Origin: Patescibacteria group bacterium
GTDB lineage: Bacteria > Patescibacteriota > Patescibacteriia > JAXHNJ01
Length of the DNA stretch: 64,000 bases
Direction: 5' to 3'
Assembly: GCA_034520665.1 (NCBI GenBank)
Contig: JAXHNJ010000001.1
Span: 258,579-322,578, forward strand
In this document: positions 651-15,337 of the stretch, one piece after another
How the letters are laid out: every line of letters begins with the position of its first letter
Position numbering within the stretch: position 1 is the stretch's first letter
Made by a program: the position numbers and the translations under genes
Notes under the pieces: model-generated
The model's database searches: none
What the model was told of the DNA's origin: nothing
What the model saw: the letters and a program-made list of their open reading frames with translations, nothing else

Positions 651-673
651 TTTTATAACTTAAACCAACTATT

Positions 674-1138: not shown

Positions 1139-1146
1139 AAATTACA

Positions 1147-1378: not shown

Positions 1379-1996
1379 ATGGAAAAGAAAATTCAGATAT
1401 TTATTATTCATGGTGGAATGACTTTCAAAAACAAGACAGACTATTTGCATTATTTAAAAACCAGAAAAATTTTAATTGAGAAAAAAATCCGTTGGACTGA
1501 TGAATTTTTAAAAAAGAATTTAGATAATAATTTTGAAATTATCAAACCACGTATGCCTTTGCAAGATAATGCCAAATATGAAGAATGGAAAATTCATTTT
1601 GAAAGACATATTCCTTGTTTGAAGAATAACATTATATTAATCGGTTCATGCTTAGGAGGAATTTTTCTCGCAAAATACCTGTCTGAAAATAAATTTCCTA
1701 AGAAAATTCTTTCAATTTACTTAATAGCGACTCCCTTTGATGGTTCAAACAGAAAATATATCTCAGGAAAGTTTAATTTAAAATCGGACTTGTCTTTATT
1801 GGAGAAAAATTCCAAAAATCTATATCTAATGTTTTCTAAAGACGATGATGTTGTTCCAGTTTCTCATGCTGAAAAATTCAGAAAAAAACTAAAAAATGCA
1901 AATATAGTAATTTACGAAAGTAAAAATGGCCATTTCAATGTATCTGAATTTCCTGAAATAATAAAAATGATTAAAACAGATGTTAAAAAGAAGTAG
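1379..1996 (+). CDS. alpha/beta-fold hydrolase-like protein (205 aa)
   Basis: IIHGG oxyanion-hole-like motif and a GSCLGG nucleophile-elbow-like motif; family assignment uncertain. Confidence 0.4.
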   Translation: MEKKIQIFIIHGGMTFKNKTDYLHYLKTRKILIEKKIRWTDEFLKKNLDNNFEIIKPRMPLQDNAKYEEWKIHFERHIPCLKNNIILIGSCLGGIFLAKYLSENKFPKKILSIYLIATPFDGSNRKYISGKFNLKSDLSLLEKNSKNLYLMFSKDDDVVPVSHAEKFRKKLKNANIVIYESKNGHFNVSEFPEIIKMIKTDVKKK

Positions 1997-2049
1997 GTCT
2001 TCTTGCTGTTTCTCTATGACGGCTTATTTCAAAACTCTGAAATTTTTCT

Positions 2050-2598
2050 TTGGAACGTTGCACTAAATTTCAGCCCTTCGGGGAATATAACAAGGATTTA
2101 GAAGTTTCGTTCGGTTTCACCTCACTACAACCAAATTTTGCTTCCTCTATTGGTAAAAATAAGGAAGTCGGCAAAACTTCTCATACACGCGAACGTTGGC
2201 TGACATTCATTTTTATCAATATGCAAACACGTGAAGAAACAAAATCTTTTCTCGAAAAAAAATATCCAGAAATTATGAATTCTACTGGTAAAAATTGGGA
2301 TGTAAAAGATGATAAACTAAAAGAGCGGGTATTAGAAAGGTTGACTGATTATTTTCACCCGATAATTGTCAAAAACTTAAAGTCCATTGAAAATACTTTA
2401 GGAAGAGTGAATCAGCGTCGCGAGAATTTTACATTCTTATTTATAGGCGCACTTTTAGGTGTCGTAGGTGGCTTAGTTGCAAATATATTGCATGATTTAC
2501 TAATAAGATTTTCACTAAAATATTATATTATTATCGCTTCAATTATTTTTTTAGCGGTACTTTTGTCTAGTCTTTTATATATTAACTATAAAAAATAA
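2050..2598 (+). CDS. hypothetical membrane protein (182 aa)
   Basis: Two C-terminal hydrophobic helices; no catalytic motif seen. Confidence 0.35.
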   Translation: MERCTKFQPFGEYNKDLEVSFGFTSLQPNFASSIGKNKEVGKTSHTRERWLTFIFINMQTREETKSFLEKKYPEIMNSTGKNWDVKDDKLKERVLERLTDYFHPIIVKNLKSIENTLGRVNQRRENFTFLFIGALLGVVGGLVANILHDLLIRFSLKYYIIIASIIFLAVLLSSLLYINYKK

Positions 2599-2674
2599 CA
2601 TGTCTATACAAAATAACAAAATATTGAATGAATTTCTGGAATATATTAAAAAAAAGTGAACGGCAGCTAACAGC

Positions 2675-2990
2675 GTGTATGAGGTTCAAGAAAAAGTGCG
2701 TTAATAATTTGAAAGAAAACGCTACGAGGGACGCTGCGCTTTCGCTCCACTCCGCTTCGCTCCGCAAAACATCAGATATAGGCAAACCTTGCGCCAGGCC
2801 TCATTTCTTACCAAGAGGATTTTCAGGATTTTTTGAGAAAAGGGGAGTAGGAGAAAAGGTTTTTTTATGGGTAAAAAAAATGGTAAACTATAAACAGTGT
2901 CGGATTATATAATGGTTTAATAAAACTTCGTATAATAAACAAATTTGAGGTGATTATACGAAATCAATTCGTATAATAACTAGTTGTACG
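2675..2990 (+). repeat. attC-like repeat (AACAGCGTGTATGAGGTTC ... CAGATATAGGCAAACC) fused to Rep-L copy 2
   Basis: Sequence identity to the other boundary repeats. The ORF-track CDS 2628..2912 lies inside this repeat and is judged spurious. Confidence 0.55.
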
Positions 2991-3009
2991 AAATTGTTCT
3001 AATTTTCTA

Positions 3010-3249
3010 GTGGTACCTATAGATTTTGATGTGTCAGTAAACAGATACCTGTCAATAGGGTATTTAGCAAAAAAAGAAAGTGCGGAGTTGAAACATTCGT
3101 TGTGGGCATTACAAAGTCCCGAAAACCTAAAAAAACATCATAAAGTTTTTGAGGAGAAATTTGAGTACTTCCGAAAAGTAGGACATAAGGCAAATGTTAA
3201 CGCGGTGAAAGAGTGGTGGGATCAAAAACTTAAGGAATTAAAAAATTAG
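3010..3249 (+). CDS. hypothetical small protein (79 aa, GTG start)
   Basis: ORF downstream of Rep-L copy 2. Confidence 0.3.
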   Translation: MVPIDFDVSVNRYLSIGYLAKKESAELKHSLWALQSPENLKKHHKVFEEKFEYFRKVGHKANVNAVKEWWDQKLKELKN

Positions 3250-3489
3250 AACAACATCGCACAACACCAAATATCTGGCTTGAAAATTTTTCAGTTATTA
3301 GAAAAAACAAGGAGTGAAAAATTTCCGCGCCTAAATTTCGCACTTTTCCGTTTAGTGGTAATTTAGAGTATAATTAATTTAACAATATAATCAGAATATC
3401 AAAGTTTTTAGCACATAAACCAAAGCGCGAAACTTCAGATATTCGGATACGTTATACGCAATTCAGAATTTTATTTTCAAACAATCACA

Positions 3490-3966
3490 ATGATAAAAAT
3501 AATATATGCAACAATTGAAGATTATGATGACTTTCTTGATGTATTCAAGGAGATTGAAGAATATCATAGAGTAAATGCTTCTTGGAAATTTCAAAAACCT
3601 AAACCTGAATTATTTCCAAGAGATTATTTTCATAAAGTAATTGAAGATGAAAATGGTATATTTTTTTTAGCCAAGGATAATACTAAAATTGTTGGTTATT
3701 TAACAGCTTTTGAAGAAAAATCTCCTGATAGGTCCATGTTAAAACTGAGAAAATATATACAGATAGATGATTTATCTGTAAGAAGCGATTATAGAAAAAA
3801 AGGTATCGGTACTTTACTAATGGATAAACTTGAAGAATTGGCTAAAAAAAATAAAATCTATGAAGTGGAGCTTAATGTATGGTGTTTTAACAAAGGTGCA
3901 ATAAAGTTTTATGAAAATAAAGGATATGAATCATTTACTCAGAAAATGAGGAAAGTTTTAAAATAA
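3490..3966 (+). CDS. GNAT family N-acetyltransferase
   Basis: Motif A (R/Q-x-x-G-x-G/A) seen as RKKGIGTLLM, and an FYENKGY C-terminal motif typical of the GNAT fold. Confidence 0.65.
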   Translation: MIKIIYATIEDYDDFLDVFKEIEEYHRVNASWKFQKPKPELFPRDYFHKVIEDENGIFFLAKDNTKIVGYLTAFEEKSPDRSMLKLRKYIQIDDLSVRSDYRKKGIGTLLMDKLEELAKKNKIYEVELNVWCFNKGAIKFYENKGYESFTQKMRKVLK

Positions 3967-4121
3967 AATTTTGAACTTCTCGCTATCGCTCCGTTCGGCT
4001 CGCTTAACAGAAGTATATGCGGTTTGCTCGTTGCCCTTTGCTTTCCCAAATTCTTCACCACGTTTGAAATTTACCTTAAGCCCGATATTAGATCTAATTT
4101 ACAAAACAATTTTTAAATTAT

Positions 4122-4952
4122 ATGGAAAAAAATCTAGAACAATCACAATCTACTAAAAAAATGGAAAAGCCGGAAGATTGGCTGCCAGGGGGGACTGAGC
4201 AAGAACAATATCTCAAAGAACATAAGGAATGGCGGGGTTTAGAAAAACGATTAGGGCAACCGAGGATATTAAATAATGTTTATTTCCCGGAAATTTTAGC
4301 TTGGATTCAAGAAGAATTTAAAGATAATCCTGATGCTTTTTCTTATTTCGAGGCAGGCTGTGGCCACGGAAATGATTTTCGAACCATAAGAAAAGAGCTT
4401 AAGGCTAGAGGCCGCTATCTCGGCGTTGATATGAGTAAGGCAGAAATCATTCACGGGATGAAATTTTATAAAGACGCGGAGGAAGCAAGAAAATTATTTG
4501 CTCAAGGTGATCTTCGTAATTTAAGACATGTTAATATTTGGGATAGGGGAAAAAGAGATTTTTCTCAACCTGTGGAAATTAAAGATGGCGAATTTGATCT
4601 TATCTATATGGAGGCGGTGTTACACGGACTTGGTTATAGTAAAAAAACCTTTCAAGAGAAAAAGGAATCAGCCCAACAGATGCTTAATGAATTATATCGT
4701 ATTTGTAAAGCTGGAGGAAAATTTTTTGGACGAGCCTCCATATTTGGCTCCACCATTACAAAAGAAAAACAATTTGAACTTCTGCGCAAGACAAATAATT
4801 GGCGCTTCATTCCTGAAGCTGAAGAATTTAAAGAAATACTTAAAAAAGCAGGGTTTACAAATATTAAAGGGGCATTGACTCCACATGAAAAAGCAAAAGA
4901 GGATCCAAATAAAAAAGATATTCTGCGATTTTCTTTTTTAGCTGAAAAATAA
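4122..4952 (+). CDS. class I SAM-dependent methyltransferase
   Basis: Motif I EAGCGHGND, then an acidic residue at the end of beta-2 (LGVDMS). Confidence 0.6.
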   Translation: MEKNLEQSQSTKKMEKPEDWLPGGTEQEQYLKEHKEWRGLEKRLGQPRILNNVYFPEILAWIQEEFKDNPDAFSYFEAGCGHGNDFRTIRKELKARGRYLGVDMSKAEIIHGMKFYKDAEEARKLFAQGDLRNLRHVNIWDRGKRDFSQPVEIKDGEFDLIYMEAVLHGLGYSKKTFQEKKESAQQMLNELYRICKAGGKFFGRASIFGSTITKEKQFELLRKTNNWRFIPEAEEFKEILKKAGFTNIKGALTPHEKAKEDPNKKDILRFSFLAEK

Positions 4953-4985
4953 TTTTTTCAGATTAAAAAATGTATTTTGCAAACA

Positions 4986-5090
4986 GTACATAACAAGGTA
5001 TATCTGGTTTCGCTTCTCCTAAGGTTGTCCCTTGATATAAATTTAATACTTCAGATATACGCGAACGTTAATTGCAATTTAGTTTAGGAC
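4986..5090 (+). repeat. attC-like boundary repeat (ATAACAAGGTATATCTGG ... CAGATATACGCGAACGTTAAT)
   Basis: Outer arms are reverse-complementary. An identical copy sits at 8345-8449 inside the segmental duplication. Confidence 0.55.
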
Positions 5091-5134
5091 TTTCTGACAT
5101 AAAATTTATATAATACATAACCCATTTTTTTCTT

Positions 5135-5608
5135 ATGAAGTTTAGAAAATTTAAGAAGAGTGATATTAGACAGATTGCAAAAATTAAGAATTCTGTTTTT
5201 AGTAGTTTCAATAAATCAGAATATTTTGAAAAAGGAACCGTTTCAAAATATTTAAATTACACCAATTCAAAAAAGTCAGACAAAGAACTCCTTGAAGCAT
5301 TTAAGATAACTAAGGATTCTATTTTTTATGTTGCTGAAGAAAATGATAAAATTTTCGGATATATCAAAGGAAGAAAAAATAGAATCGGGAATTTGTTTGT
5401 TCTTGGTCAAAACCATAAAAAAGGGATTGGTAGAAAATTAGTTAATTTATTTGAAAAAGAAGCAGAAAAACAGAACTCTAAAGAAATTAAGATTCACTCT
5501 TCAATTTATGCAGTTCCTTTCTATCAAAAAAGGGGTTATAAGAAAACTACTGGAATTAGAAATCTTCATGGCTTGAAGATTCAACCAATGAAAAAAGTCC
5601 TAAACTAG
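5135..5608 (+). CDS. GNAT family N-acetyltransferase (paralog 1 of 2)
   Basis: HKKGIGRKLV motif A. 98% identical to the ORF at 8494..8967. Confidence 0.65.
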   Translation: MKFRKFKKSDIRQIAKIKNSVFSSFNKSEYFEKGTVSKYLNYTNSKKSDKELLEAFKITKDSIFYVAEENDKIFGYIKGRKNRIGNLFVLGQNHKKGIGRKLVNLFEKEAEKQNSKEIKIHSSIYAVPFYQKRGYKKTTGIRNLHGLKIQPMKKVLN

Positions 5609-5993
5609 ACTTCTTCGAAATTTTTTCAGAATTCCTCGACCCCGCTGCGCTCTCGCCTATGGCTCGGGGTAATTAACAGGATTTTAACGGAAAAATACTC
5701 GGCTCGCATTTTCCCAAATCGCCTACGGCAAAACTTCTCTAAATCCTGAAGTTGTGCAAGACCCCATTTCTTGCCAAGAGGATTTTCAGGATTTTTTGAG
5801 AAAAGGGGAGTAGGGGAAGAGGTTTTTTATTGGTAAAAAAAATGGTAAACTATAGACAGTATCGGATTATATAATGGTTTAATAAAACTTCGTATAATAA
5901 CGAGTTAAGTGAAATTGAGAATTTGTCCTATGAGATTTAAATGGGCACGATTTTTTCCGAAAACTTTATATCACTACATACTTTTATTAATTT

Positions 5994-6470
5994 ATGATGG
6001 ACATAATCAAAATAAGCGAAGATTTCGCAAAAAAAGAATATGCAAAGCATGATGAACTTCACCAATGGAATCATGTTGAAGATGTGATGAATGTGGCTTT
6101 GAAATTATCCGAGTTTCATCCAGAAGCAAATTTAGAAATTTTAAAACTTGCTGTTATCTTTCATGATATTAGTTATGAACAATATGAAACTCATGTTGAA
6201 GAGTCCATGAAAGTAGCAGAAAAATTTCTAAAAGAGCAGGATTATCCGGAAGATAGAATCAAGAAAGTTTTGCAAGTGATGATTTCTCATTCTGGCCCTC
6301 ACAGAAGAAAACTCGGTGAAGCAAAAATGATTGAGGGAAAAATCATTTATGATTCTGATAAATTCCATCTTGCAAAAACTAGAGAGGGATTTGAAAAATA
6401 TTTTGATAGATTTTATCTGGATGAAACTCGTGATATGATTAAAAAAACGTGCCCTGAATTCTTTAAATAA
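5994..6470 (+). CDS. HD-domain phosphohydrolase
   Basis: H...HD motif (HDELHQWNHVED ... IFHDISY). Confidence 0.55.
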   Translation: MMDIIKISEDFAKKEYAKHDELHQWNHVEDVMNVALKLSEFHPEANLEILKLAVIFHDISYEQYETHVEESMKVAEKFLKEQDYPEDRIKKVLQVMISHSGPHRRKLGEAKMIEGKIIYDSDKFHLAKTREGFEKYFDRFYLDETRDMIKKTCPEFFK

Positions 6471-6708
6471 ATGTAAACTTGACGGACAAATTCTCAACTT
6501 GCTCACTATCGTTCGCACCACGCTGCGCTCTCACTTCGTTCGACCCTCATTTAACAAGGGATAAAAGGAAAATTGCTCGGCTCGCAATTTTCCCAAATTT
6601 TCTCCACTACGTTCTGAAAACTTCTTTTATCCCTGATGTTATATGAAATAAATTTTGGCGCGCTAGAAAAAAACCTTAATAAACAAATTCCCCCTAAGTA
6701 TTATTAAC

Positions 6709-7368
6709 ATGAAAAAATCTAAACTTCTCTGGTATATTTTAACAATAGTCCCAATCGCATTATTAATTCTTGGATATATTTTTCCCTCATCATTCTTTGG
6801 AAGTCAAGAGGCAATTAGAGATTTTGTTTCTCAATTTGGAATTTTTGCCCCTCTTGCCTTCATTGTGCTTCAAATCCTGCAAGTTGTAGTAACGCCCCTT
6901 AGTCATTATACTGTTTCAATAGCGGGCGGATTTATTTTTGGAACATGGCAAGGTTTTATTTATAATTGGATTGGTAGAGTAATTGGAACAGCAATCGCTT
7001 TTTATCTTGCTCGAATTTTTGGAAGAAAAATTATTAAGCATCTTGTTAAAAAAGAAACTATCCAAAAATACGATTATATATTTGAAAAAGGAAAACTCTT
7101 ACTGTTCTTAGCATATTTCTTGCCATTGTTCCCAGATGATGAACTTTCATATCTTGCAGGACTTTCAGCAATTAGTCCAAGAATCTTTTTACCTTTAATG
7201 GCGATTGGGCATATTAGTGGAAGTTTAAGTTTAGCTTACATCGGCAACGGGATACAATCTTTCAAAGAGCCGATGTTTATAATACTCTCATTAATAACTT
7301 TAATTGGGGGAATTTGGTTTGCATGGCATTATCAAAAAGTTAAAAATAATGCTAATACCAAAGTGTAA
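6709..7368 (+). CDS. DedA/TVP38/TMEM64 family membrane protein
   Basis: Multi-TM protein with a G-x-x-x-FG...F-x-P...S-x-AG-like signature (GGFIFG ... LAGLS). Confidence 0.6.
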   Translation: MKKSKLLWYILTIVPIALLILGYIFPSSFFGSQEAIRDFVSQFGIFAPLAFIVLQILQVVVTPLSHYTVSIAGGFIFGTWQGFIYNWIGRVIGTAIAFYLARIFGRKIIKHLVKKETIQKYDYIFEKGKLLLFLAYFLPLFPDDELSYLAGLSAISPRIFLPLMAIGHISGSLSLAYIGNGIQSFKEPMFIILSLITLIGGIWFAWHYQKVKNNANTKV

Positions 7369-7627
7369 GATGCGCGCCAAAATTTATTTCACAAAACGGG
7401 CGGGCAAGGAGTTAGAAGAACAAGCTAGAAAAAATCTTAAAAGAGAATTAGCAATGTTGTCGTAAAAATTTTTCTTAACATCAACTAATACTGTGTATCT
7501 GGTTCCACAAATGAGAAATAATTGATTATTTTTTACATTCTTGGTTGCCCTTTTACAATTTTATAAAAGAGAAAGGCCGAGTCCCGCAAATCTGCGAAAC
7601 CCGGCCGAATGGATGGGGGCGGGGCTT

Positions 7628-7798
7628 TCAATACCAGCCCGCGTCTCCTGCTTCCTTAATTTGCTGCGCCTTGGTCTTTACTTCCTGAAGAGCCTTAAGC
7701 ACCTTTGGGTCGTCCTTGTACTTCTCATCGAGTTGGTTGAGGAGATACAGGATTTCCCCTGCTGCCGTGGATGCTCCTACTCCGCTAATCATATTCAT
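7628..7798 (-). CDS. small hypothetical protein (56 aa) with strong Shine-Dalgarno sequence, on a GC-rich insert
   Basis: Minus-strand ORF MNMISGVGASTAAGEILYLLNQLDEKYKDDPKVLKALQEVKTKAQQIKEAGDAGWY, preceded by GGAGGTG. Local GC about 50% against about 30% in flanks. The overlapping + strand ORF 7541..7903 looks like a translation artefact. Confidence 0.35.
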   Translation of the reverse strand: MNMISGVGASTAAGEILYLLNQLDEKYKDDPKVLKALQEVKTKAQQIKEAGDAGWY

Positions 7799-8095
7799 TG
7801 CGCACCTCCAATGTTCACGACATATTATCCTAGCAGATTATGCCCTGCCTGTCAAGCTAACAAATCTTTAAAAATTGTAAAAATCCCTAAAGTTAGGGTA
7901 TAATAATAAAGAATTTCTCATTTGTTCCACCTAAATTCTCATTTCGTATTGTGCTGGCGCTCTGCGCAATTTTATCACCTACATACACTCGTGACTTCGC
8001 ATACGCATGTCTGTTAGATGAAATAATAAAAAAATTCTTAACTATTGATAAATAATAAAATTTAACAATAATATTAACACTAGCAATACAAACTT

Positions 8096-8311
8096 ATGAA
8101 AAATTTTGAAAAAAACATTGGCCAAGGAGAAAGTTTATTAGAATTAGCCGCAAAAAAACTTAATTTAGATCCAAAAAACACCTCGTTAAATGAAGTAGAG
8201 GCAGTTATGCTTGGATTGCCAAAAGAAAGTTCCGTTTATGAGGTTGAAAAAGCAAAAGAGGATCCAAATAAAAAAGATATTCTGCGATTTTCTTTTTTAG
8301 CTGAAAAATAA
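8096..8311 (+). CDS. hypothetical protein; the last 20 aa are identical to the C-terminus of the methyltransferase at 4122..4952 (chimeric ORF at a duplication junction)
   Basis: C-terminus KAKEDPNKKDILRFSFLAEK is shared. The duplication breakpoint falls inside the ORF. Confidence 0.3.
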   Translation: MKNFEKNIGQGESLLELAAKKLNLDPKNTSLNEVEAVMLGLPKESSVYEVEKAKEDPNKKDILRFSFLAEK

Positions 8312-8493
8312 TTTTTTCAGATTAAAAAATGTATTTTGCAAACAGTACATAACAAGGTATATCTGGTTTCGCTTCTCCTAAGGTTGTCCCTTGATATAAA
8401 TTTAATACTTCAGATATACGCGAACGTTAATTGCAATTTAGTTTAGGACTTTCTGACATAAAATTTATATAATACATAACCCATTTTTTTCTT

Positions 8494-8967
8494 ATGAAGT
8501 TTAGAAAATTTAAGAAGAGTGATATTAGACAGATTGCAAAAATTAAGAATTCTGTTTTTAGTAGTTTCAATAAATCAGAATATTTTGAAAAAGGAACCGT
8601 TTCAAAATATTTAAATTACACCAATCCAAAAAAGTCAGACAAAGAACTCCTTGAAGCATTTAAGATAACTAAGGATTCTATTTTTTATGTTGCTGAAGAA
8701 AATGATAAAATTTTCGGATATATCAAAGGAAGAAAAAATAGAATCGGGAATTTGTTTGTTCTTGGTCAAAACCATAAAAAAGGGATTGGTAGAAAATTAG
8801 TTGATTTATTTGAAAAAGAAGCAGAAAAACAGAACTCTAAAGAAATTAAGATTAACTCTTCAATTTATGCAGTTCCTTTCTATCAAAAAAGGGGTTATAA
8901 GAAAACTACTGGAATTAGAAATCTTCATGGCTTGAAGATTCAACCAATGAAAAAAGTCCTAAACTAA
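8494..8967 (+). CDS. GNAT family N-acetyltransferase (paralog 2 of 2)
   Basis: Differs from 5135..5608 by three substitutions (S45P, N104D, H130N). Confidence 0.65.
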   Translation: MKFRKFKKSDIRQIAKIKNSVFSSFNKSEYFEKGTVSKYLNYTNPKKSDKELLEAFKITKDSIFYVAEENDKIFGYIKGRKNRIGNLFVLGQNHKKGIGRKLVDLFEKEAEKQNSKEIKINSSIYAVPFYQKRGYKKTTGIRNLHGLKIQPMKKVLN

Positions 8968-9007
8968 ACTTCTTCGAAATTTTTTCAGAATTCCTCGACC
9001 CCGCTGC

Positions 9008-9084
9008 CTGCCCGCCATAGTCTACGGCATCAGGCCTTGGCTCGCCCGCCTGAGTTGCTCAGGCAAGTCGGGCGGCAGGCGGGC
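9008..9084. repeat. 77-bp GC-rich palindromic insertion (REP/MITE-like) present in only one copy of the duplicated repeat
   Basis: CTGCCCGCC...GCCTGAGTTGCTCAGGC...GGCAGGCGGGC has terminal and internal inverted repeats. The paralogous position 5647/5648 is uninterrupted. Confidence 0.6.
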
Positions 9085-9412
9085 GCTCTCGCCTATGGCT
9101 CGGGGTAATTAACAGGATTTTAACGGAAAAATACTCGGCTCGCATTTTCCCAAATCGCCTACGGCAAAACTTCTCTAAATCCTGAAGTTGTGCCAAACCC
9201 CATTTTTTGCCAAGAGGATTTTCAGGATTTTTTGAAACAAGGGAAGTAGGAGAAGAGGTTTTTTTATTGGTAAAAAAAATGGTAAACTATAGACAGTGTT
9301 GGATTAATATAATGGTTTAATAAAAATTCGCATAATAAACAAATTTGAGGTGATTATACGAAATCAATTCGTATAATAACGAGTTATCGGAAATAAAAAT
9401 AGTAAAATTTTT

Positions 9413-9973
9413 ATGGGTAATAAAAAAATCTTCACAATCAGCTCTGATTTTGAATTAATTAAAAAACCAAAATGGTTAGATGGCTTTCGTATTAAGCACG
9501 ATAAACCTTTTCCATATCACGTAACTTTAAAAACATGTACATACTTTGATATTGATAATTTTAAAAATTTAAAAAAAGACTTAAGTGGTATTGTTAAAAA
9601 ATATAGCGAGATCAAGGTTATATTTAACAAACTTTTTATAAGTCGCTCTTCAAAGGGCGAATGTATTATGATAAAAGCAGATAATAATAAAAAGCTAAAT
9701 GAACTCCAGAAGGAAATTGTGAAAAAGTTTTCAAAATATGGGAATTATATAGCGAAAAAATACGAAAAATTCGAGAAAAGTTTTATTCCCCATATTACTA
9801 TCGCGCGACATCTTTCATCAGAACAATTGATAATTGCAAAAAAGGATTTAGGGAAAAAACTATTTTGTGAAGCTGTAGTCAAAGGGCTTTCTTTAATGAT
9901 AGTGGAAAATAATACTGATGAAGAATGGTTAAACCACAACAATAAAAGTTATTACAAGTTACAGAACAAATAG
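9413..9973 (+). CDS. 2H phosphoesterase superfamily protein (LigT/2'-5' RNA ligase-like)
   Basis: Two H-x-T/S-x motifs (YHVTLK and PHITIA) about 90 aa apart. Confidence 0.55.
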   Translation: MGNKKIFTISSDFELIKKPKWLDGFRIKHDKPFPYHVTLKTCTYFDIDNFKNLKKDLSGIVKKYSEIKVIFNKLFISRSSKGECIMIKADNNKKLNELQKEIVKKFSKYGNYIAKKYEKFEKSFIPHITIARHLSSEQLIIAKKDLGKKLFCEAVVKGLSLMIVENNTDEEWLNHNNKSYYKLQNK

Positions 9974-10157
9974 AATTTTACTATTTTTACCTTCCGATAA
10001 CAGCGTGTATGCGGTTCGGACTTTCCCTGAAAACCCTCTCCCATATTTTTGCTCCCGTTGGTCGCAAAAACATCGCATACGCTGGAACGTTAAGTGAAAT
10101 TGCGGAGGGGCGCCTAATACGATACTTTTTATAAGTGAGTGAATTTACAATACTATT

Positions 10158-10832
10158 ATGACAACAAAACTTCGCGAACCAGATGAAGAAAATTATGTCT
10201 TTACCGAGGGTATTGATTATTCAAAAACAGAAAAAAAATTTATCTGGGGAACTGGTGATAAAGACACTCTGGAGCTTCTGAATGATATTAAAATTCGAGG
10301 CAAGTGGCTAAACCTTGCCGCTGGTGATGGACGTTACAATTTGAATTTGTTGGAAAAAGTTAATTCAGTTGTTGCTTCAGATATTGATGAAGGTGCGCTT
10401 GGCAAATTGAAACAAAACACACCTAACGAACTAAGAGAAAAACTACAAACAGAAATTTTTGATATAACTAAACCATTTCCATTTGAAGATGAATCATTTG
10501 ACGGTGTGTTTTGCACTGGGACATTACATCTTTTTCCAACTGAAATTTTGCAGCAAATTATTTTAGAGATTGATAGAATTCTAAAATCCAATGGCAAACT
10601 GATTATAGACTTTGCAACTGACATCAAACGTATTCTGCCAGATGGCAAACTTTATATCAGAAAATCTGAACCTCAATACACTGCCGAAGAAGCCGCAAAA
10701 TTTCTCAGAGAATTATTGCACAATTATCAAATTCAAATTGTAGAATCAGAAGTTCCAGAGGAAGAAATTAAGACGCGAGGTTTTGTTTATAGATTTAGTT
10801 GTAAATTCATTTTACTAACAGCAGATAAATAA
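10158..10832 (+). CDS. class I SAM-dependent methyltransferase
   Basis: Motif I LNLAAGDGRYN, then VVASDID (acidic residue at the end of beta-2). Confidence 0.6.
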   Translation: MTTKLREPDEENYVFTEGIDYSKTEKKFIWGTGDKDTLELLNDIKIRGKWLNLAAGDGRYNLNLLEKVNSVVASDIDEGALGKLKQNTPNELREKLQTEIFDITKPFPFEDESFDGVFCTGTLHLFPTEILQQIILEIDRILKSNGKLIIDFATDIKRILPDGKLYIRKSEPQYTAEEAAKFLRELLHNYQIQIVESEVPEEEIKTRGFVYRFSCKFILLTADK

Positions 10833-11172
10833 TGACGGCGACCCCCACAACTCTCGCCAGCCCTTCGGGACGTTGCACTAAATTTTTGCCCTTCGGGACA
10901 TATAACAAGGGATATGAGGTTACGAAGTTTTGCAGACTTCTTTACTCAAATTCGCCTACGGCGAACTTCTCATAAGCCCGATGTTAAATGAAATTTTGCC
11001 TTGAAATGTGAAGTGAAAAATATTCGTGCTATTAAAAAAAGATAGTTCGTAATTTCAAAATTTATTTTATTTATCGGCAAAACTTCACTTAACACTGTGT
11101 ATCTGGTTCCGTAAAAGAGAAAAATTAAATAATTCTCTATTTTTAAAAGCCTTTTTTCAATTTTTTTACAAA

Positions 11173-11200
11173 GAAAAAACCAGTTGTTAGGGACAACTGG
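11173..11200 (-). terminator. Rho-independent terminator for the minus-strand gene 11217..11591
   Basis: Minus strand reads CCAGTTGTCCCTAACAACTGG followed by a T-run: an 8-bp stem plus TTTTTTT. Confidence 0.55.
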
Positions 11201-11216
11201 AAAACCCTTATTTTGT

Positions 11217-11591
11217 TTAGAGGACTGCGTAGTACGGCATTCCGCCAGGCAGGGCTGACCACATGGCACGCGGCATAAGGCATTTGGCCTTGCCGATCGC
11301 GGTGCCGAGTTGAAAGAGCTGGTCCATGCGTTGGTGCAGATCTGTCCACTGATTGCCATGCTTGTCGTTACAGGCATTCAAAAAGGACGTGCCGCCACCA
11401 CCGGACATCTTGAACTCGTCGGGTAATTCATCCAGTATTTCCTCAATCTCGGCCTTATGGCTTTCCAGTCTGTCGGTATGAAAACCAACATTCTGGGTTA
11501 TACCCTCGGCTTTGACATAATTGTTGGTTTCCTCATCTTCTTTGAACAGACAGTCTATGAAGATTGCATTTACGCGTTCGGGATCAATCAT
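11217..11591 (-). CDS. hypothetical protein (124 aa), compositionally foreign (higher GC), minus strand
   Basis: ORF has its own terminator and sits inside a split boundary repeat. GC about 47%. No motif recognised. Confidence 0.45.
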   Translation of the reverse strand: MIDPERVNAIFIDCLFKEDEETNNYVKAEGITQNVGFHTDRLESHKAEIEEILDELPDEFKMSGGGGTSFLNACNDKHGNQWTDLHQRMDQLFQLGTAIGKAKCLMPRAMWSALPGGMPYYAVL

Positions 11592-11907
11592 CTTCGTTCC
11601 TCCTTTGTTAAGGTTATCAGCAAAATTACTGATTATTAAGTATGGCAGATTTCTTATTTCATGTCAAGCTTGGCGACCAAAAAATTGAAAAAAGGGCTTT
11701 AATAGCTTTAATATAAGGTAAATTATTATTTTTTCTCTTTTACTTCACCCAAATTGTTCGTTCCTCGCAAATTCTCATAATCCTAACGTTATGTGAAATA
11801 GCCAGAAATTTCTTAATTATTTTTTAAGATTTTTTTGGCAATTTATTTCACGTCGAACATAACTTGTGGTATAATTTAGTCAGTTTAATTAATTAACCAA
11901 TAAAACT

Positions 11908-12207
11908 ATGTCAGAAAAATTCGAAGGCAATTTGCCACCTCAAGAGCAAAAAGAAGGTTATTCAGCAGATTTCGTAGCCAAGGTAAAAGAAGTATTTCCA
12001 GATTGGGATCGCATGAATCAAGCGCTGGAATCTGGTAGTGAGTGGGTCGGTCGTTATCTTGATGATTCGCGCGGTTTTTCAATGAAGCCAGATGAAATTG
12101 TCCAAGCTCTTGAAGGCGGCGATCAAGAAAAAGTTCTTGAGGCGGCAAGGAAAGCCAAAAAGATTGATGAGCTTTATAAAGAATGGTCTGAATCACGGGA
12201 AAAATAA
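11908..12207 (+). CDS. hypothetical acidic protein (99 aa)
   Basis: Preceded by an extended -10 promoter: TTCACG, 17 nt, TGgTATAAT at about 11850-11878. The + strand frame looks more protein-like than the overlapping minus-strand frame. Confidence 0.4.
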   Translation: MSEKFEGNLPPQEQKEGYSADFVAKVKEVFPDWDRMNQALESGSEWVGRYLDDSRGFSMKPDEIVQALEGGDQEKVLEAARKAKKIDELYKEWSESREK

Positions 12208-12256
12208 ATTGCCAAAAAATAATAATAAGGAATAGAAATTTCTGTCAACATCACAT

Positions 12257-12400
12257 AACAGCGTGTATCTGGTTCGGCAAATTTGACACAATTAGATTCA
12301 AAAGGAATGTCAAATCTACCTCTCCCAAATTTCGCAAAAAAATACTATTTTTAAAGGAATTTTTGCGAAACTTCAGATACACGCAAACGTTATACGCAAT
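12257..12400 (+). repeat. attC-like boundary repeat, the best-preserved copy
   Basis: Outer arms ATAACAGCGTGTATCTGGTTCGG ... CTTCAGATACACGCAAACGTTATACG. Two inner inverted repeats: AAATTTGACA/TGTCAAAT and TTTCGCAAAAA/TTTTTGCGAAA. Confidence 0.6.
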
Positions 12401-12589
12401 TCAAAAAATATTTTTTTTATAAGGAATTTTGACAGGCTTTTTAAAAAGGGGAATAAATTTGTTTTTTTATTAATTAGAAAGGGGTAAATGGTGTTTTCTC
12501 CGCTATCGCTCCGAAAACGATTTATTATTGGAAAAAGACAAAAAGTTTTATATACTTAAATTAGTTTTAACTTATTAAAGGATTAAAAT

Positions 12590-15337
12590 ATGAGTGAAGA
12601 ATTACTACAAAGAGGACTAACTAAAAAAGGAATTACATTCATAGATTATGAATTTTTTCCGTTACACTCAACGACCTTAAAACAATATAAAAAGTTAAAA
12701 ATAATTCCTAATAAAGATTATGATAAATATGAAATTAGAAAACCTGACGGGCTTTTAGTAGACAGAGGAAATAAATCAAAGCCGAAAGTTGTTACAGTTT
12801 TGGAATACAAAAAACCTTCTGAATTTCAAACAGATAAACAAAAAAGAGAAGCGATTGAACAATGCAATGATTTGTGTCAAGAGCTTGAAGCAAAAATAGG
12901 AATTATTACAGACGGAATTGTTACTTATTGGATAAATCCAAACCACGCAGATAAAAATAACAAATACAAAGATAGAACAACTGGGAAGAAGCGAAGTTTT
13001 TCTTATATCTTAAATGATGATAAGCAAAGATTACAAAAGAAGTTTTTCATTAAAGAGAACGATAAAAAAGATATTTCAAAATTGAATAATGAAACAAGAG
13101 AAACTTACAGATTAGTTAAAAGAATTTTAGAAGAAACAAATAATAAAAATTCTGTTTTGAAAGCAACAGAAAAAACAGACCCAACCCCTCTCGCGAGAAG
13201 TGTTTGGCAAAGTATTTACATAAGCACAAAAGATAATCCAACAGCTTGTCTTTATAATGTTGTTGAGATTTTTATCTTTAAGTTTCTGAGTGATTTAGGA
13301 GTTTTAAAAGGAGTTAATAGTTTTGATTATTTATTGAAACTTTACAAAACAGAAGATAGTAAAACAGTTTTAAAACACTATGCTAAAACTTGCAGAGAAG
13401 AAATAAGAAATTTATTTGAAGCGGGAGATGACGGGACAACAATAATTAATGGAACTATTTTTGTAAATAAAGACGGAAGCCCTGTTTTATCACAAGCGAC
13501 TTTATTTAAAGACACTATTGAAAAATATGCAAAGTTTGGAGATTTAAAAAATATTGACAAGGGATTTAAAACAAAATTGTTCGAAACATTTTTGAAGCAG
13601 AGTAAGGACAAAAGTAAGTTAGGACAATTTTTTACACCGAGAAAAGTTGTTAAGGGAATTGTTGAAATGGCTGATGTGGATAAAGCGGAATTTATATGCG
13701 ACCCATTTTGCGGTGTTGGTGGTTTTCTTTTAGAGCCATTTCAAATATCTCAAAATTTGAAAAATAAATTTATTCCAAAGAATAATGAAATAAATCCGCC
13801 TGTAAAACTTTTAGGATATGATACAGGAAGAGAAGATAACGACGAACAAAAGAGGACTATTATTTTAGCAAAGGCGAATATGCTTATTTATTTGTCTGAT
13901 TTAGTCGAAAAAAATTCTACATTAAACGAGGAATTTTCAAAAATAATAAATAATACTTTCCACTTTTTATCGGATAGTAATCTTGGAACACTAAAAGAAA
14001 CTGAAAGATTTGAAAGAAATGAGGATAAGCCTGATTTAATTATTACCAATCCTCCATATATCACAAGCGGAGTAACTACAATAAGAAAACAGATTGAGGA
14101 AGATGGTTTAACTGATTATTATAAAAATAGTGGAAAGGGAATGGAAGGTTTATGCTTAAAATGGATAATAAAAAATTTGAAAAGAAAAGGACAAGCATTT
14201 ATTGTTTTGCCAGATAGTATTTTTAATGTTTTTGCCAATAAAGTTTTAAGAGATGAAATAAAAAAGAATTGTTATATTAATTGTATTATATCTTTACCCG
14301 CAAAAACTTTCTTTAATACTCCAAAGAAAACTTATGTTTTAGGAATTACAAAAAAAGATTGTGATGAAGATGAATGTGAAAATCTTAAACAGGATTTTCC
14401 TGTATTCACTTATTTAGTTTCTAATATCGGGGAAACATTAGATATTAACCGATTCGAAATTCCTGAAAATGATTTGGATAATGCGAAGAATTTGTTTAAT
14501 CAATTTAAAGGAAGTCCAAATAATTTTCAAACAGATGACTCACGATGTAAATTACAACCTATTGAAAAATTTGAAAATGAGAAATATTGGATAATTGATA
14601 AATGGTGGAGTAAAAAAGAAAAAATAGAAATTGAAATTGAAGAAGAAGATGAAAGTTTAACTATTGATGAATTTAAAGATCAAATTGAAAAAACAAAGGA
14701 AAAATTAGGAGAATTAGAATGGGTGGCAGATAAAACAAAAGAGAGAAAATATAAAACCAAAATGATGTATGTAACGGATGATAAGATAAATAAAAATAGG
14801 AAAGAAGAAGGAATTTTTGAAGCAGAAAAAGGAAATGCAAAATACACAAAAAAATATATGCACGACCATAAAGGTGAGTTTCCTGTTTATTCTTCTCAAA
14901 CTTCTAATTTAGGCGAGATAGGAAGCATAGACACCTATGATTATGAAGAAGAATGTTTTACTTGGACAACCGATGGAACTTATGTTGGAACTGTTTTTTA
15001 TAGAAATGGTAAGTTTTCAATAACCACTCATTGCGGAATTTTAAGAGTTAAACCAGAATACAAAGATAAAGTTGATTTTGAATATTTGAATTTTATCTTA
15101 AATCAAACACTCCCTAATTATAAATTAGGTGAAGGTTCTAATAAAAGATTAGGGACTGAAAGAATGAAGGAAATTCAAATAGAAATCCCAATAAACAAAA
15201 ACGGAGAATTTGACTTAGATAAACAAAAAGAAATTGCTGAAAAGTATAAGAAAATAGAAGAAATCAAGGAAAAACTTAAAGACAATTATGAAAAGATGAT
15301 AAATTCAAAAGTTCAGATTATTGAAGCAGAAGAATAA
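12590..15337 (+). CDS. Type IIG (MmeI-like) single-chain restriction-modification enzyme: N-terminal PD-(D/E)xK nuclease, gamma-class N6-adenine methyltransferase, C-terminal target-recognition region
   Basis: N-terminal KPDGLLVD...VLEYKK matches PD...ExK. Methyltransferase motif I FFTPRKVV...DPFCGVGGFL. Motif IV ITNPPY. The 915-aa length matches MmeI architecture. Confidence 0.7.
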   Translation: MSEELLQRGLTKKGITFIDYEFFPLHSTTLKQYKKLKIIPNKDYDKYEIRKPDGLLVDRGNKSKPKVVTVLEYKKPSEFQTDKQKREAIEQCNDLCQELEAKIGIITDGIVTYWINPNHADKNNKYKDRTTGKKRSFSYILNDDKQRLQKKFFIKENDKKDISKLNNETRETYRLVKRILEETNNKNSVLKATEKTDPTPLARSVWQSIYISTKDNPTACLYNVVEIFIFKFLSDLGVLKGVNSFDYLLKLYKTEDSKTVLKHYAKTCREEIRNLFEAGDDGTTIINGTIFVNKDGSPVLSQATLFKDTIEKYAKFGDLKNIDKGFKTKLFETFLKQSKDKSKLGQFFTPRKVVKGIVEMADVDKAEFICDPFCGVGGFLLEPFQISQNLKNKFIPKNNEINPPVKLLGYDTGREDNDEQKRTIILAKANMLIYLSDLVEKNSTLNEEFSKIINNTFHFLSDSNLGTLKETERFERNEDKPDLIITNPPYITSGVTTIRKQIEEDGLTDYYKNSGKGMEGLCLKWIIKNLKRKGQAFIVLPDSIFNVFANKVLRDEIKKNCYINCIISLPAKTFFNTPKKTYVLGITKKDCDEDECENLKQDFPVFTYLVSNIGETLDINRFEIPENDLDNAKNLFNQFKGSPNNFQTDDSRCKLQPIEKFENEKYWIIDKWWSKKEKIEIEIEEEDESLTIDEFKDQIEKTKEKLGELEWVADKTKERKYKTKMMYVTDDKINKNRKEEGIFEAEKGNAKYTKKYMHDHKGEFPVYSSQTSNLGEIGSIDTYDYEEECFTWTTDGTYVGTVFYRNGKFSITTHCGILRVKPEYKDKVDFEYLNFILNQTLPNYKLGEGSNKRLGTERMKEIQIEIPINKNGEFDLDKQKEIAEKYKKIEEIKEKLKDNYEKMINSKVQIIEAEE

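What the first reader, a model, noticed from the sequence alone, without database searches (positions are those of the whole stretch)
7487..8010. Boundary repeat split by a 380-bp GC-rich insert encoding a 56-aa protein on the opposite strand; a second case at 11085-11800 carries a 124-aa minus-strand gene with its own terminator
The 5' arm (ATACTGTGTATCTGGTTCC, 7487) and 3' arm (CTTCGCATACGCATGTCTGTTAGATGAAAT, about 7960-8010) of one boundary repeat are separated by a segment of about 50% GC. That segment is flanked by the 11-bp inverted repeat AAATGAGAAAT/ATTTCTCATTT and carries a minus-strand ORF (7628..7798) with a GGAGGTG SD. The 5' arm at 11085 and 3' arm at about 11765-11800 likewise flank a minus-strand gene of higher GC (11217..11591) with a canonical terminator at 11173-11200. 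In true integrons the central part of attC is a known target for IS1111-attC elements and group IIC introns. Small protein-coding inserts inside the recombination site would be a different kind of attC hitch-hiker, or they could be inverted cassettes that trimmed the site.
Basis: inference. Interest (0 to 1): 0.65.

Follow-up and report, generated by a model that had tools for sequence, protein, structure and literature searches.

The report
Small genes inside attC recombination sites
Two integron-type recombination sites in this candidate-phyla-radiation (CPR) bacterium have a whole self-expressed small gene, reading backwards, in the loop of one of their hairpins; both belong to a widespread and apparently undescribed family of such gene-carrying sites, although these two copies are partly decayed.

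Summary
Window 1-12400 is an integron-like cassette array of a Patescibacteria (CPR) MAG. At 7478-8024 (E1) and 11079-11799 (E2), an attC-like site is split by 0.42 and 0.63 kb.

Each insert has imperfect inverted repeats of about 56 bp, not the 11 bp reported. These enclose a terminator, a minus-strand ORF at 50% GC, an SD and a TTGACA-17-TAnnnT promoter. The insert sits exactly where ordinary attCs of this array have their first internal hairpin.

The same architecture recurs in 30 or more loci from many CPR lineages, with at least 18 different cargo ORFs of 54-202 aa. R boxes, L boxes and the long stem co-vary: 95.6% of cells paired, 18 of 40 pairs compensatory, 0 of 500 shuffles as high. 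Between independent assemblies, homology starts and stops exactly at GTT core sites. Cassettes were therefore moved with the gene-bearing site as their recombination site.

Both window copies are relics. Their 3' arms are non-cognate, and E1 has AAC mutated to AAT and a truncated partner ORF.

The 124-aa protein is usually a stand-alone CPR gene and also occurs in jumbo phages. The 56-aa protein is nearly always embedded in such a site. Cargo function is unknown. I rate this a new variant of integron cassettes.

The parts
6638..8013 (+). Composite E1 cassette. It runs from the TT of the preceding R' (GTT 6637-6639) to the G of the R' used by E1 (GTT 8013-8015).
   Evidence: Read from the sequence. 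Cassette limits follow the GTT junction rule seen.
6709..7368 (+). Forward ORF of 219 aa with a VTT/DedA-type membrane domain. It is not the original partner of the E1 site.
   Evidence: Pfam PF09335, E 2.4e-26. It is unrelated to the roughly 222-aa ORF that precedes the site in L007.
7380..7465 (+). Relic of the 3' end (about 28 codons) of the roughly 222-aa ORF that precedes E1-type sites in L007, L074 and L075.
   Evidence: DNA alignments A3 and A4. Homology to L007 starts near 7380.
7478..7506 (+). E1 5' arm. The R'' box has its AAC triplet mutated to AAT (7487-7489). The L'' box CTGTGTATCTG is at 7491-7501.
7507..7562 (+). E1 left inverted repeat (IR-L), the left half of the expanded hairpin-1 stem.
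   Evidence: the repeat finder I2 and I5. It pairs with IR-R in the DNA fold.
7575..7606 (-). Intrinsic terminator of the 56-aa gene.
   Evidence: 14-bp stem followed by a T tract.
7628..7798 (-). 56-aa cargo gene (50% GC), with SD GGAGGTG at 7803-7809.
   Evidence: It has 9 homologues at 68-100% identity.
7827..7855 (-). Promoter of the 56-aa gene, TTGACA-17-TAGGAT with a TG extension.
   Evidence: The position is conserved across the family.
7871..7925 (+). E1 right inverted repeat (IR-R). It also holds a + strand outward promoter-like site at 7875-7904.
7926..7937 (+). Central attC motif TCCACCTAAATT (family consensus TCCACCCAAATT).
7978..7991 (+). Degenerate cognate L' (CCTACATACACTCG) with no GTT after it.
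   Evidence: Comparison with L007.
7995..8024 (+). Non-cognate 3' arm CTTCGCATACGCATGTCTGTTAGATGAAAT (GTT 8013-8015).
   Evidence: The arms do not pair in the fold.
10984..11788 (+). E2 cassette of 805 bp. It has an ORF-less leader of about 100 nt followed by the gene-bearing attC.
   Evidence: the preceding R' lies 108 nt upstream of R''.
10984..11078 (+). Conserved ORF-less leader. Its ends TTTGCC and GGCAAA pair with each other.
   Evidence: The leader ends co-vary among loci (TTTGCC/GGCAAA, AGCGAC/GTCGCT, ATTGAC/GTCAAT).
11079..11110 (+). E2 5' arm, with AAC at 11091-11093 and L'' CTGTGTATCTG at 11095-11105.
11111..11166 (+). E2 left inverted repeat (IR-L).
   Evidence: I1, I2. It pairs with IR-R in the fold.
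11180..11200 (-). Intrinsic terminator of the 124-aa gene.
11217..11591 (-). 124-aa cargo gene (50% GC), with SD GGAGG at 11599-11603 and a 5'-UTR hairpin at 11616-11633.
11639..11667 (-). Promoter of the 124-aa gene, TTGACA-17-CATACT with a TG extension.
11679..11743 (+). E2 right inverted repeat (IR-R). It also holds a + strand promoter-like site at 11685-11714.
11744..11755 (+). Central motif TTCACCCAAATT, the probable junction of the hybrid site.
11756..11799 (+). Non-cognate 3' half: a short hairpin 2 and then L'-R', CTCATAATCCTAACGTTATGTGAAAT (GTT 11788-11790).
   Evidence: It is the same type as the attC at 10897-10992.

Best explanation
E1 and E2 are members of a conserved family of integron-type cassettes found in CPR bacteria. 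In this family the recombination site itself carries a gene. Both window copies are partly decayed.

Ordinary attC-like sites of these arrays fold, as single strands, in this order: R box, small bulge, L box, then two internal hairpins separated by a CCCAAATT motif. In the gene-bearing version the first internal hairpin is expanded. Its stem is about 56 bp. Its loop is a complete, oppositely oriented expression unit with a sigma-70-type promoter, a 5'-UTR hairpin, an SD, a small ORF and an intrinsic terminator.

The long stem probably acts as a clamp. It would bring the R''/L'' and L'/R' halves together despite a loop of 0.4-0.9 kb, so that the site can still be recombined by the Xer-like recombinase encoded beside such arrays. 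The small gene therefore travels with the cassette and is expressed from its own promoter, independent of the array promoter.

Shown here: the architecture, its conservation, the compensatory changes, the cassette-precise homology breakpoints and the adjacency to recombinase genes.

Inferred: that folding and recombination actually occur, that the promoters fire, and what the cargo does.

In this window both copies lost their cognate 3' half. The likely cause is deletion between the conserved central motifs of neighbouring sites. E1 also lost its R'' AAC triplet and its partner ORF. Both are therefore probably immobile relics that still encode intact small proteins.
For: 1. Anatomy of E1 and E2.

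2. Ordinary attCs of the window fold as R box, L box and two hairpins. The insert lies between L'' and the CCCAAATT motif, which is the position of hairpin 1.

3. Recurrence. The 5'-junction pattern gave about 16 true CPR loci among one-genome-per-species contigs. An inner-repeat pattern gave about 20 true metagenome loci, every one next to attC arms.

4. Cargo. At least 18 different minus-strand ORFs sit at a constant offset inside a conserved frame.

5. Covariation on 17 sites. 95.6% of cells are paired, against about 45% when the partners are slid. 18 of 40 pairs carry changes on both sides, and 0 of 500 shuffles reach that. Example: CTGTGTATCTG/CAGATACACAG versus CCGAATATCTG/CAGATATTCGG.

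6. Folding. The bottom strand of the intact member L029 folds as predicted, with z = -10.9.

7. Mobility as a cassette. L007 and L074 share 1.24 kb (ORF plus gene-bearing site) at about 90% identity. The shared stretch is bounded exactly by GTT core sites, with unrelated flanks. The same E2-type leader follows five different upstream sites, always joined at GTT.

8. Recombinase. Tyrosine-recombinase genes lie divergently beside such arrays in L015, L019 and L024. In L015 (same sequence as L067) and L019 the gene-bearing cassette is in first position.

9. Relic status of the window copies.
Against: - No experiment or read-level evidence shows excision or integration.
- Inverted repeats can be kept alike by processes other than selection for folding. 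Examples are gene conversion between the arms, or one protein binding both ends.
- The site is far outside the known attC size range. Published variable terminal structures (VTS) are 20-100 nt (PMC4889954).
- The L box has no obvious extrahelical bases.
- The neighbouring recombinases lack the IntI-specific domain and score below the integron-integrase cutoff. 'Integron' is therefore an analogy that has not been shown to be an identity.
- The same promoter-plus-inner-repeat module also occurs in the cassette body, in the loop of the leader hairpin (class B: L040, L041, L057). That is what an insertion-prone module would look like.
- Both copies in the window itself cannot fold as attC sites.
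Confidence: 0.72

Rival explanations
1. The module bounded by inverted repeats (promoter, gene, terminator, with inner repeats of about 20 bp: AGCCCTTTTTCAATTTTTT / AAAAAATTGAAAAAGGGCT) is a non-autonomous mobile element. It would be MITE-like or a 'mobile insertion cassette', mobilised in trans and targeting hairpin loops of attC sites.
For: - The same inner repeats and promoter frame occur in the loops of two different hairpins. One is hairpin 1, next to the L boxes (class A). The other is the leader hairpin, next to the R boxes (class B).
- The outer repeat differs between the two classes, as if it were the stem of the local target hairpin.
- The cargo differs while the frame is conserved.
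- In L070 the C-terminus of an rve-type transposase abuts the inner right repeat.
- L021 and L031 have extra insertions at the same inner-repeat edge.
Against: - No transposase was found within any module.
- No convincing target-site duplication is present. A shared TCC is the only candidate, and it counts as one event.
- All class-A copies share one 5' arm subtype and one outer repeat. This points to a single ancestral event followed by spread as a cassette.
- All of about 20 true metagenome hits to the inner repeat are integron-associated. None lies elsewhere in a genome.
- Homology breakpoints between assemblies fall at GTT core sites, not at the repeat ends.
- There were no hits in viral contigs.
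Confidence: 0.2
2. The two arms of each site are halves of different, independently truncated attC sites that happen to flank a reversed gene cassette. On this view there is no single split site.
For: - In this window the arms are poor partners. E1 pairs CTGTGTATCTG with CGCATACGCATG. E2 pairs CTGTGTATCTG with CTCATAATCC.
- Only the long stem pairs in the folds, with z = -2.0 for E1 and -4.0 for E2.
- E1 carries AAT instead of AAC.
Against: - Relatives with the same genes (L007, L074 and L075 for the 56-aa gene; L047 for the 124-aa gene) and more than 15 other loci have cognate, co-varying arms around the same structure.
- E1 still retains a degenerate cognate L' at 7978-7991.
- The mismatch in the window is therefore best explained as secondary damage.
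Confidence: 0.04
3. The inserts are whole cassettes integrated in inverted orientation. The integration destroyed or trimmed the host attC.
For: The gene is on the opposite strand and has its own promoter. That is also true of reversed cassettes such as toxin-antitoxin cassettes in chromosomal integrons (my own knowledge, not tested here).
Against: - There is no reversed R/L box pair or GTT/AAC core at the insert edges.
- Integrase crossover is at the R' box, not between L'' and the central motif.
- The edges are a 56-bp inverted repeat continuous with the hairpin-1 position.
- Reversed modules in the normal cassette-body position do exist (class B). They look different at their edges.
Confidence: 0.04

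Closest known systems
Integron attC sites with a variable terminal structure (VTS)
   Same: - R''/R' boxes with the AAC...GTT triplets, and an L''/L' stem.
- An asymmetric unpaired spacer and a variable distal part.
- Position at the 3' end of each cassette.
- Cassette junctions at G|TT.
- Arrays lie beside a divergent tyrosine-recombinase gene.
   Different: - The distal part is 0.42-0.9 kb, against 20-100 nt in published sites (PMC4889954).
- It contains a promoter, an ORF and a terminator, clamped by a stem of about 56 bp.
- The L box is an uninterrupted 11-bp duplex.
- The neighbouring recombinase lacks the IntI-specific domain.
IS1111-attC insertion sequences and group IIC-attC introns (known occupants of attC sites)
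   Same: - Foreign DNA sits inside an attC site in one fixed orientation.
- It may carry outward promoter-like sites, as reported for group IIC-attC introns (PMC3001079).
   Different: - There is no DEDD transposase, no intron RNA structure (Rfam gave nothing) and no reverse transcriptase.
- The cargo is a variable small gene.
- The mobile unit appears to be the cassette, not the insert.
Reverse-oriented cassettes with their own promoter in chromosomal integrons, such as toxin-antitoxin and defence cassettes (from my own knowledge)
   Same: - The gene reads against the array and has its own promoter.
- It is embedded in a cassette array.
   Different: In those cassettes the gene lies in the cassette body, upstream of an ordinary attC. 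The class-B loci here are arranged that way. In E1 and E2 the gene lies inside the attC. No toxin-antitoxin or defence family matched the cargo.
MITEs and mobile insertion cassettes (IS-like ends, passenger genes, no transposase)
   Same: - Terminal inverted repeats around a passenger gene.
- The cargo varies within a conserved frame.
- The module is seen in two kinds of location.
   Different: - No target-site duplication and no identified cognate IS.
- The module is restricted to attC hairpin loops.
- Homology breakpoints are at GTT cores.
Integrons outside classical Bacteria, such as archaeal integrons (PMC9668308)
   Same: Cassette arrays with attC-like folding sites occur in little-studied lineages known mainly from MAGs.
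   Different: Archaeal IntIs are reported to keep the IntI-specific additional domain. The CPR recombinases examined here do not.

Membership tests
Integron attC recombination site | Inverted R''/R' core boxes with the conserved AAC ... GTT triplets | tested here: met
   The family consensus is ..ATAAC.. / ..GTTAT.. and the boxes co-vary. E2 has AAC at 11091-11093 and GTT at 11788-11790. E1 has AAT at 7487-7489, which is a mutated triplet.
Integron attC recombination site | An L''/L' stem that pairs within one site, so that the single strand folds as a hairpin | tested here: met
   Met for the family: an 11-bp L stem, 97.9% paired, with 4 pairs showing compensatory change, and the L029 fold at z = -10.9. 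Not met by the two window copies, whose 3' arms are non-cognate.
Integron attC recombination site | Extrahelical bases or an unpaired spacer that give strand asymmetry | tested here: inconclusive
   There is an asymmetric internal loop between the R and L boxes (1 nt against 4 nt) and a branched distal part. No bulged bases were seen in the L stem.
Integron attC recombination site | Size of about 60-140 bp, with a variable terminal structure of 20-100 nt | tested here: not met
   The distance between the arms is 416-896 nt in family members. The published VTS range is taken from PMC4889954.
Integron attC recombination site | Cassette boundaries at the G|TT of R' | tested here: met
   Homology between L007 and L074 begins and ends at GTT. 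The same leader is joined at GTT to five different upstream sites.
Integron attC recombination site | Recombined by an integron integrase | not testable with these tools
   This needs a recombination assay or read-level evidence of excision.
Integron (platform) | IntI: a tyrosine recombinase with the IntI-specific additional domain near patch III | tested here: not met
   The recombinases beside the arrays in L015, L019 and L024 are 269-272 aa. They score 209-220 bits on TIGR02249, below its cutoff of 265, and the match is split in two stretches. No recombinase gene lies in the window, and the array runs off its left end.
Integron (platform) | A divergent recombinase gene, an attI-like site, and an array of co-oriented cassettes | tested here: met
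   Seen in L015/L067, L019 and L024. The window array 1-12400 has co-oriented ORFs separated by attC-like sites.
IS1111-attC element | Encodes a DEDD (IS110/IS1111) transposase and has subterminal inverted repeats | tested here: not met
   The only ORFs are small proteins of 54-202 aa with no transposase family match.
Group IIC-attC intron | Group II intron RNA structure and an intron-encoded reverse transcriptase | tested here: not met
   Rfam found nothing at E<=1 in 1-16000. There is no reverse-transcriptase ORF.
MITE / mobile insertion cassette | Terminal inverted repeats plus target-site duplication, with copies at many unrelated targets | tested here: inconclusive
   Inverted repeats are present and the module is seen in two kinds of hairpin loop. 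There is no clear target-site duplication, and all true copies are inside cassette arrays.

The most novel reading that the evidence does not exclude
In CPR bacteria, integron-type recombination sites have a second cargo compartment. The loop of an internal attC hairpin, closed by a long co-varying stem, carries complete self-expressed genes, and the site stays recombination-competent. If so:
- One cassette can deliver two independently expressed genes, or a gene with no forward ORF at all.
- The recombinase involved is a Xer-like enzyme without the IntI domain.
- Current integron finders, which cap attC length, would miss this class systematically.
Probability: 0.5. Interest if true: 0.8.

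Novelty: new variant of a known kind. Interest (0 to 1): 0.72.

Why it matters
Integron cassettes are normally described as one promoterless gene followed by a short folding site. This family would change that picture in several ways.

- **Site size.** A structure-specific recombination site would tolerate, and conserve, a loop of 0.4-0.9 kb if a long stem clamps it. That bears on how attC folding and strand choice work.
- **Expression.** A gene in a cassette array could be expressed regardless of its distance from the array promoter.
- **Detection.** These cassettes would probably be missed or mis-split by tools that limit attC length. As I recall it, IntegronFinder's default limit is 200 bp. 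I did not check this.
- **CPR biology.** It points to an active cassette system in CPR bacteria that uses a Xer-like recombinase without the IntI domain.
- **Cargo.** The cargo consists of small proteins of unknown function at about 50% GC, some shared with jumbo phages. This gives a defined set of candidates for phage-host or symbiosis functions in organisms that cannot be cultured.

Tried and rejected
- **Rfam.** A scan of 1-16000 at E<=1 found nothing.
- **Cargo protein families.**
  - Pfam gave nothing for the 56-aa and 124-aa proteins. The only hit among ten other cargo proteins was DUF7736.
  - PHROGs matched the 124-aa protein to phrog_26039, of unknown function.
  - PADLOC gave nothing credible.
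- **DNA upstream of the window.** One ORF was not on record. The other was found only on a 1.5-kb contig. Whether this genome has a recombinase next to the array is therefore unknown.
- **The 124-aa gene in other genomes.** I looked for long inverted repeats around it in other CPR genomes and found none. The gene is not always embedded.
- **Viral contigs.** Scans with both family patterns gave only chance hits, or none.
- **The transposase fragment in L070.** The 38-aa query was below the 40-aa minimum, and no relatives were found in the held loci.
- **tRNA genes.** None were found in the variant loci L018, L030, L031 and L070.
- **Rejected explanations.**
  - An assembly artefact is ruled out because an independent Logan assembly (L011) reproduces E1.
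  - An inverted whole cassette and a chance juxtaposition of half-sites are dealt with under the rival explanations.
Full report
**Setting**

The window is 33.6% GC. Its first 12.4 kb is a run of co-oriented + strand ORFs separated by imperfect palindromes of 90-145 bp. Each palindrome starts ..ACATCnnATAAC-nnn-GTGTATCTGG.. and ends ..CTTCAGATACAC-nnnn-GTTATnnGAAAT.

The exact 124-aa protein is on record from a Patescibacteria (CPR) MAG, on a contig of 455,760 bp.

**Checking the observation**

Both described loci exist as stated. Exact coordinates are in the parts list.

E1 has a 5' arm at 7478-7506 and a 3' arm at 7995-8024. E2 has a 5' arm at 11079-11110 and a 3' arm at 11766-11799. The two 5' arms share 17 identical bases, ACTGTGTATCTGGTTCC.

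Between the arms of each locus lie the following:
- A minus-strand ORF of 56 aa (E1, 7628-7798) or 124 aa (E2, 11217-11591), each at 50% GC. Forward cassette ORFs are 26-42% GC and the flanking repeats are 16-23%.
- An SD.
- A minus-strand TTGACA-17-TAnnnT promoter with a TG extension, and a canonical intrinsic terminator.

In E1 it spans 7507-7562 / 7871-7925. In E2 it spans 11111-11166 / 11679-11743. The repeats of E1 and E2 are homologous to each other.

Directly after the right repeat comes TCCACCTAAATT (E1) or TTCACCCAAATT (E2). This is the conserved central motif of ordinary attCs. The insert therefore occupies exactly the position of internal hairpin 1.

**Relatives elsewhere: the two proteins**

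The 124-aa protein has 695 homologues at 63-88% identity, apparently all from CPR bacteria and with no Pfam domain. In the six other loci looked up (L001-L006) it is a stand-alone gene with its own promoter and terminator. It sits among housekeeping genes, with no attC arms and no long repeats. It matches phrog_26039 and occurs in large and jumbo phages of Proteobacteria, up to 64% identity. A confident AlphaFold2 model (pLDDT 81) has no structural neighbour in the PDB.

The 56-aa protein has only nine homologues. In L007-L009, L074 and L075, which are independent groundwater and other assemblies, it lies in the same structure. There the arms are perfectly complementary: 5' CTGTGTATCTG, 3' CAGATACACAG-AAAC-GTTAT. 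In L010 it is not embedded, and only a promoter-side remnant of the repeat survives.

**Relatives elsewhere: DNA pattern scans**

A scan with the 5'-junction pattern over one genome per species found 20 loci. About 16 are true relatives. They come from Moranii-, Falkow-, Harrison-, Parcu- and Saccharibacteria, and some sit in bins labelled as other phyla.

A second scan used a pattern from the inner repeat, which does not include the arms. It found about 20 true metagenome loci plus about 18 chance coding matches. Every true hit lies next to attC arms.

The family architecture, in order along the + strand, is:
1. ..ATAAC-A-CTGTGTATCTG-GTTCC (5' arm).
2. GTAAAAGAGAAAAATTAAATAATTCTCTATTTTTAAAAGCCCTTTTTCAATTTTTT (left repeat).
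3. A variable terminator and a variable minus-strand ORF.
4. A conserved SD, a 5'-UTR hairpin, a -10 TATACT and a -35 TTGACA.
5. The right repeat.
6. TCCACCCAAATT.
7. Hairpin 2, in a 47-nt or an 80-nt version.
8. CTTCAGATACACAG-AAAC-GTTA.. (3' arm).

The distance between the arms is 416-896 nt. Among 21 elements there are at least 18 different cargo ORFs of 54-202 aa, several of them membrane proteins or lipoproteins. L047 carries a homologue of the window's 124-aa protein in another such site, but behind a different 5' UTR. The E2 UTR resembles those of elements with other cargo. ORFs have therefore been exchanged within a conserved frame.

**Do the two halves belong together?**

I removed the cargo and hairpin 2 from 17 sites and counted pairs on a structure I named: R box, L box and 24 bp of the long stem.
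- 95.6% of cells form standard pairs, against 37-54% when the partners are slid by 1-3 columns.
- 18 of 40 pairs show changes on both sides.
- None of 500 shuffles reached the observed pairing or covariation.

Examples of compensatory change:
- L'' / L' is CTGTGTATCTG / CAGATACACAG in most sites. It is CCGAATATCTG / CAGATATTCGG in L017 and L060, and CCAAATATCTG / CAGATATTTGG in L045.
- Stem ends are GTAAAAG / CTTTTAC in some sites and GCAAAAG / CTTTTGC in others.

The bottom strand of an intact member (L029, 574 nt) folds as predicted: R box, bulge, L box, hairpin 2, a stem of about 50 bp and the cargo loop. Its z-score is -10.9.

**Evidence that the whole thing moves as a cassette**

L007 and L074 share a 1.24-kb unit at about 90% identity. 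It comprises a roughly 222-aa forward ORF and the complete gene-bearing site. Homology begins exactly at the GTT of the preceding site and ends just after the site's own GTTATATGAAAT. The flanks are unrelated.

Most E2-type cassettes have no forward ORF. A conserved leader of about 100 nt lies between the previous R' and the R'' box, 107-109 nt apart. The two ends of the leader pair and co-vary: TTTGCC/GGCAAA, AGCGAC/GTCGCT, ATTGAC/GTCAAT. The same leader follows five different upstream sites, always joined at GTT.

In L015/L067 and L019 the gene-bearing cassette comes directly after a divergent tyrosine-recombinase gene and an attI-like ..ACGA|GTT.. or ..ACCA|GTT.. site. L014, L026, L030 and L047 show the same kind of attI-like junction.

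**The recombinase**

The recombinases beside these arrays are 269-272 aa.
- Their best NCBIfam model is the integron integrase TIGR02249, at 209-220 bits. That is below the cutoff of 265, and the match is split in two stretches.
- They score 196-223 bits on the XerA/integron-integrase model NF040815, whose cutoff is 220.

The platform therefore works like an integron. By the defining IntI feature it is not shown to be one.

**State of the two window copies**

Both are damaged.

E1:
- The AAC triplet of R'' is AAT (7487-7489).
- Only the last 28 or so codons of the usual partner ORF remain (7380-7465). They begin 12 nt after the stop of an unrelated VTT-domain ORF.
- A degenerate cognate L' without GTT (7978-7991) is followed by a 3' arm of another type.

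E2:
- After TTCACCCAAATT comes the 3' half of an 'ATGAG-type' site, like the one at 10897-10992.

Only the long stem forms in the folds, with z = -2.0 for E1 and -4.0 for E2. A deletion between the conserved central motifs of neighbouring sites would produce such hybrids. This is my inference. The cargo genes, promoters and terminators are intact.

**A second arrangement and the main rival**

In L040, L041 (the same sequence as L043 and L058) and L057, the same promoter frame and inner repeats of about 20 bp enclose a reversed gene in the cassette body. The module sits inside the loop of the leader hairpin, next to the R boxes, and is followed by an ordinary attC. The module therefore occurs at either end of the folded rod. 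The outer repeat is different in each case, as if it were the stem of the local hairpin.

That is what an insertion-prone, MITE-like module would look like. L070 adds a hint, because the C-terminus of an rve-type transposase abuts the inner right repeat there. The contig edge prevented follow-up.

Against this rival:
- No module contains a transposase.
- There is no clear target-site duplication.
- Every class-A copy has one arm subtype and one outer repeat.
- No true copy was found outside a cassette array.
- Homology breakpoints fall at GTT cores rather than at the repeat ends.

I consider an insertion a plausible origin. I do not consider it the present mode of movement.

**Literature**

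Full-text searches found no description of integrons or attC sites in Patescibacteria or CPR bacteria. They also found no description of genes inside attC sites. The published VTS range is 20-100 nt (PMC4889954). The known occupants of attC sites are IS1111-attC elements and group IIC-attC introns. The introns carry outward promoters (PMC3001079). The right repeats of E1 and E2 also contain + strand promoter-like sites that point at the next cassette. These are only consensus matches.

**Verdict**

The best-supported reading is a conserved class of cassettes whose recombination site carries a self-expressed gene. The two window copies are decayed members of that class. What the cargo proteins do is unknown.

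Noticed in passing
window 466-648, 2814-2996, 5792-5915, 9214-9396: A repeat of about 183 bp occurs four times within the array. It ends in ACGAGTTATCGGAAAT, ACTAGTTGTACGAAAT or ACGAGTTAAGTGAAAT. The same sequence lies between the recombinase gene and the first cassette in L015 and L019, so it is attI-like. The repeat also has a promoter-like TTGGTA..TAAACT. It looks like attI/promoter modules reiterated inside an array.
   Followed up: partly
window 4886-5842 and 8245-9278; insertion about 9006-9082: There is a near-identical duplication of about 0.95 kb. It covers the end of one ORF, an attC, a 157-aa GNAT cassette and the next element. The second copy carries an extra GC-rich palindromic segment of about 77 bp that is absent from the first.
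   Followed up: partly
window 2048-2109 and 10863-10924: Two 'empty' mini-cassettes: an R' (ACGTTGCACTAAATTT) is followed within about 35 nt by the R'' (ATATAAC) of the next attC. The two copies are 81% alike.
   Followed up: no
L015 4760-5569, L019 6887-7705, L024 1938-2750: The tyrosine recombinases beside these CPR cassette arrays are 269-272 aa. They score below the integron-integrase cutoff and appear to lack the IntI-specific additional domain. They score about as well on the XerA/integron-integrase model.
   Followed up: partly
L002 3868-3894 and 4653-4679: In another CPR genome the stand-alone 124-aa gene module (about 785 bp) is flanked by a 27-bp direct repeat of the 3' end of ychF. 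This looks like an insertion by some other route.
   Followed up: no
L070 1-134: The C-terminus of an rve-type (DDE) transposase (..YNNLEHCGLNGKTPNEM..) lies on the + strand. It sits directly against the inner right repeat inside a gene-bearing attC, at a contig edge.
   Followed up: partly
L022 2795-2925: This is a short version of the E2-type site. It has 15 nt of the left repeat, a loop of about 25 nt and the right repeat, and no gene. It keeps part of the right end of the module, so it looks like a deletion derivative rather than a virgin site.
   Followed up: partly
L007 4066-4731, L074 620-1291, L075 866-1501: A conserved ORF of about 222 aa with no Pfam match always precedes the site that carries the 54-56-aa gene, with the two genes arranged convergently. 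This may be a two-gene unit. In the window only its last 28 or so codons remain.
   Followed up: partly
window 12590-15337: Directly after the array lies a 915-aa fusion of an N6-adenine DNA methylase domain and a type I specificity (S) domain. It may be a type IIG or type I-like restriction-modification gene.
   Followed up: no
phage records PV558790.1, NC_042082.1, AP018399.1, NC_070950.1 and MZ574430.2, among others: Homologues of the 124-aa CPR protein (34-64% identity, full length) are encoded by large and jumbo phages of Variovorax, Stenotrophomonas, Xanthomonas, Klebsiella and Caulobacter. The annotated records call it a hypothetical protein (PV558790.1 has no annotation).
   Followed up: partly
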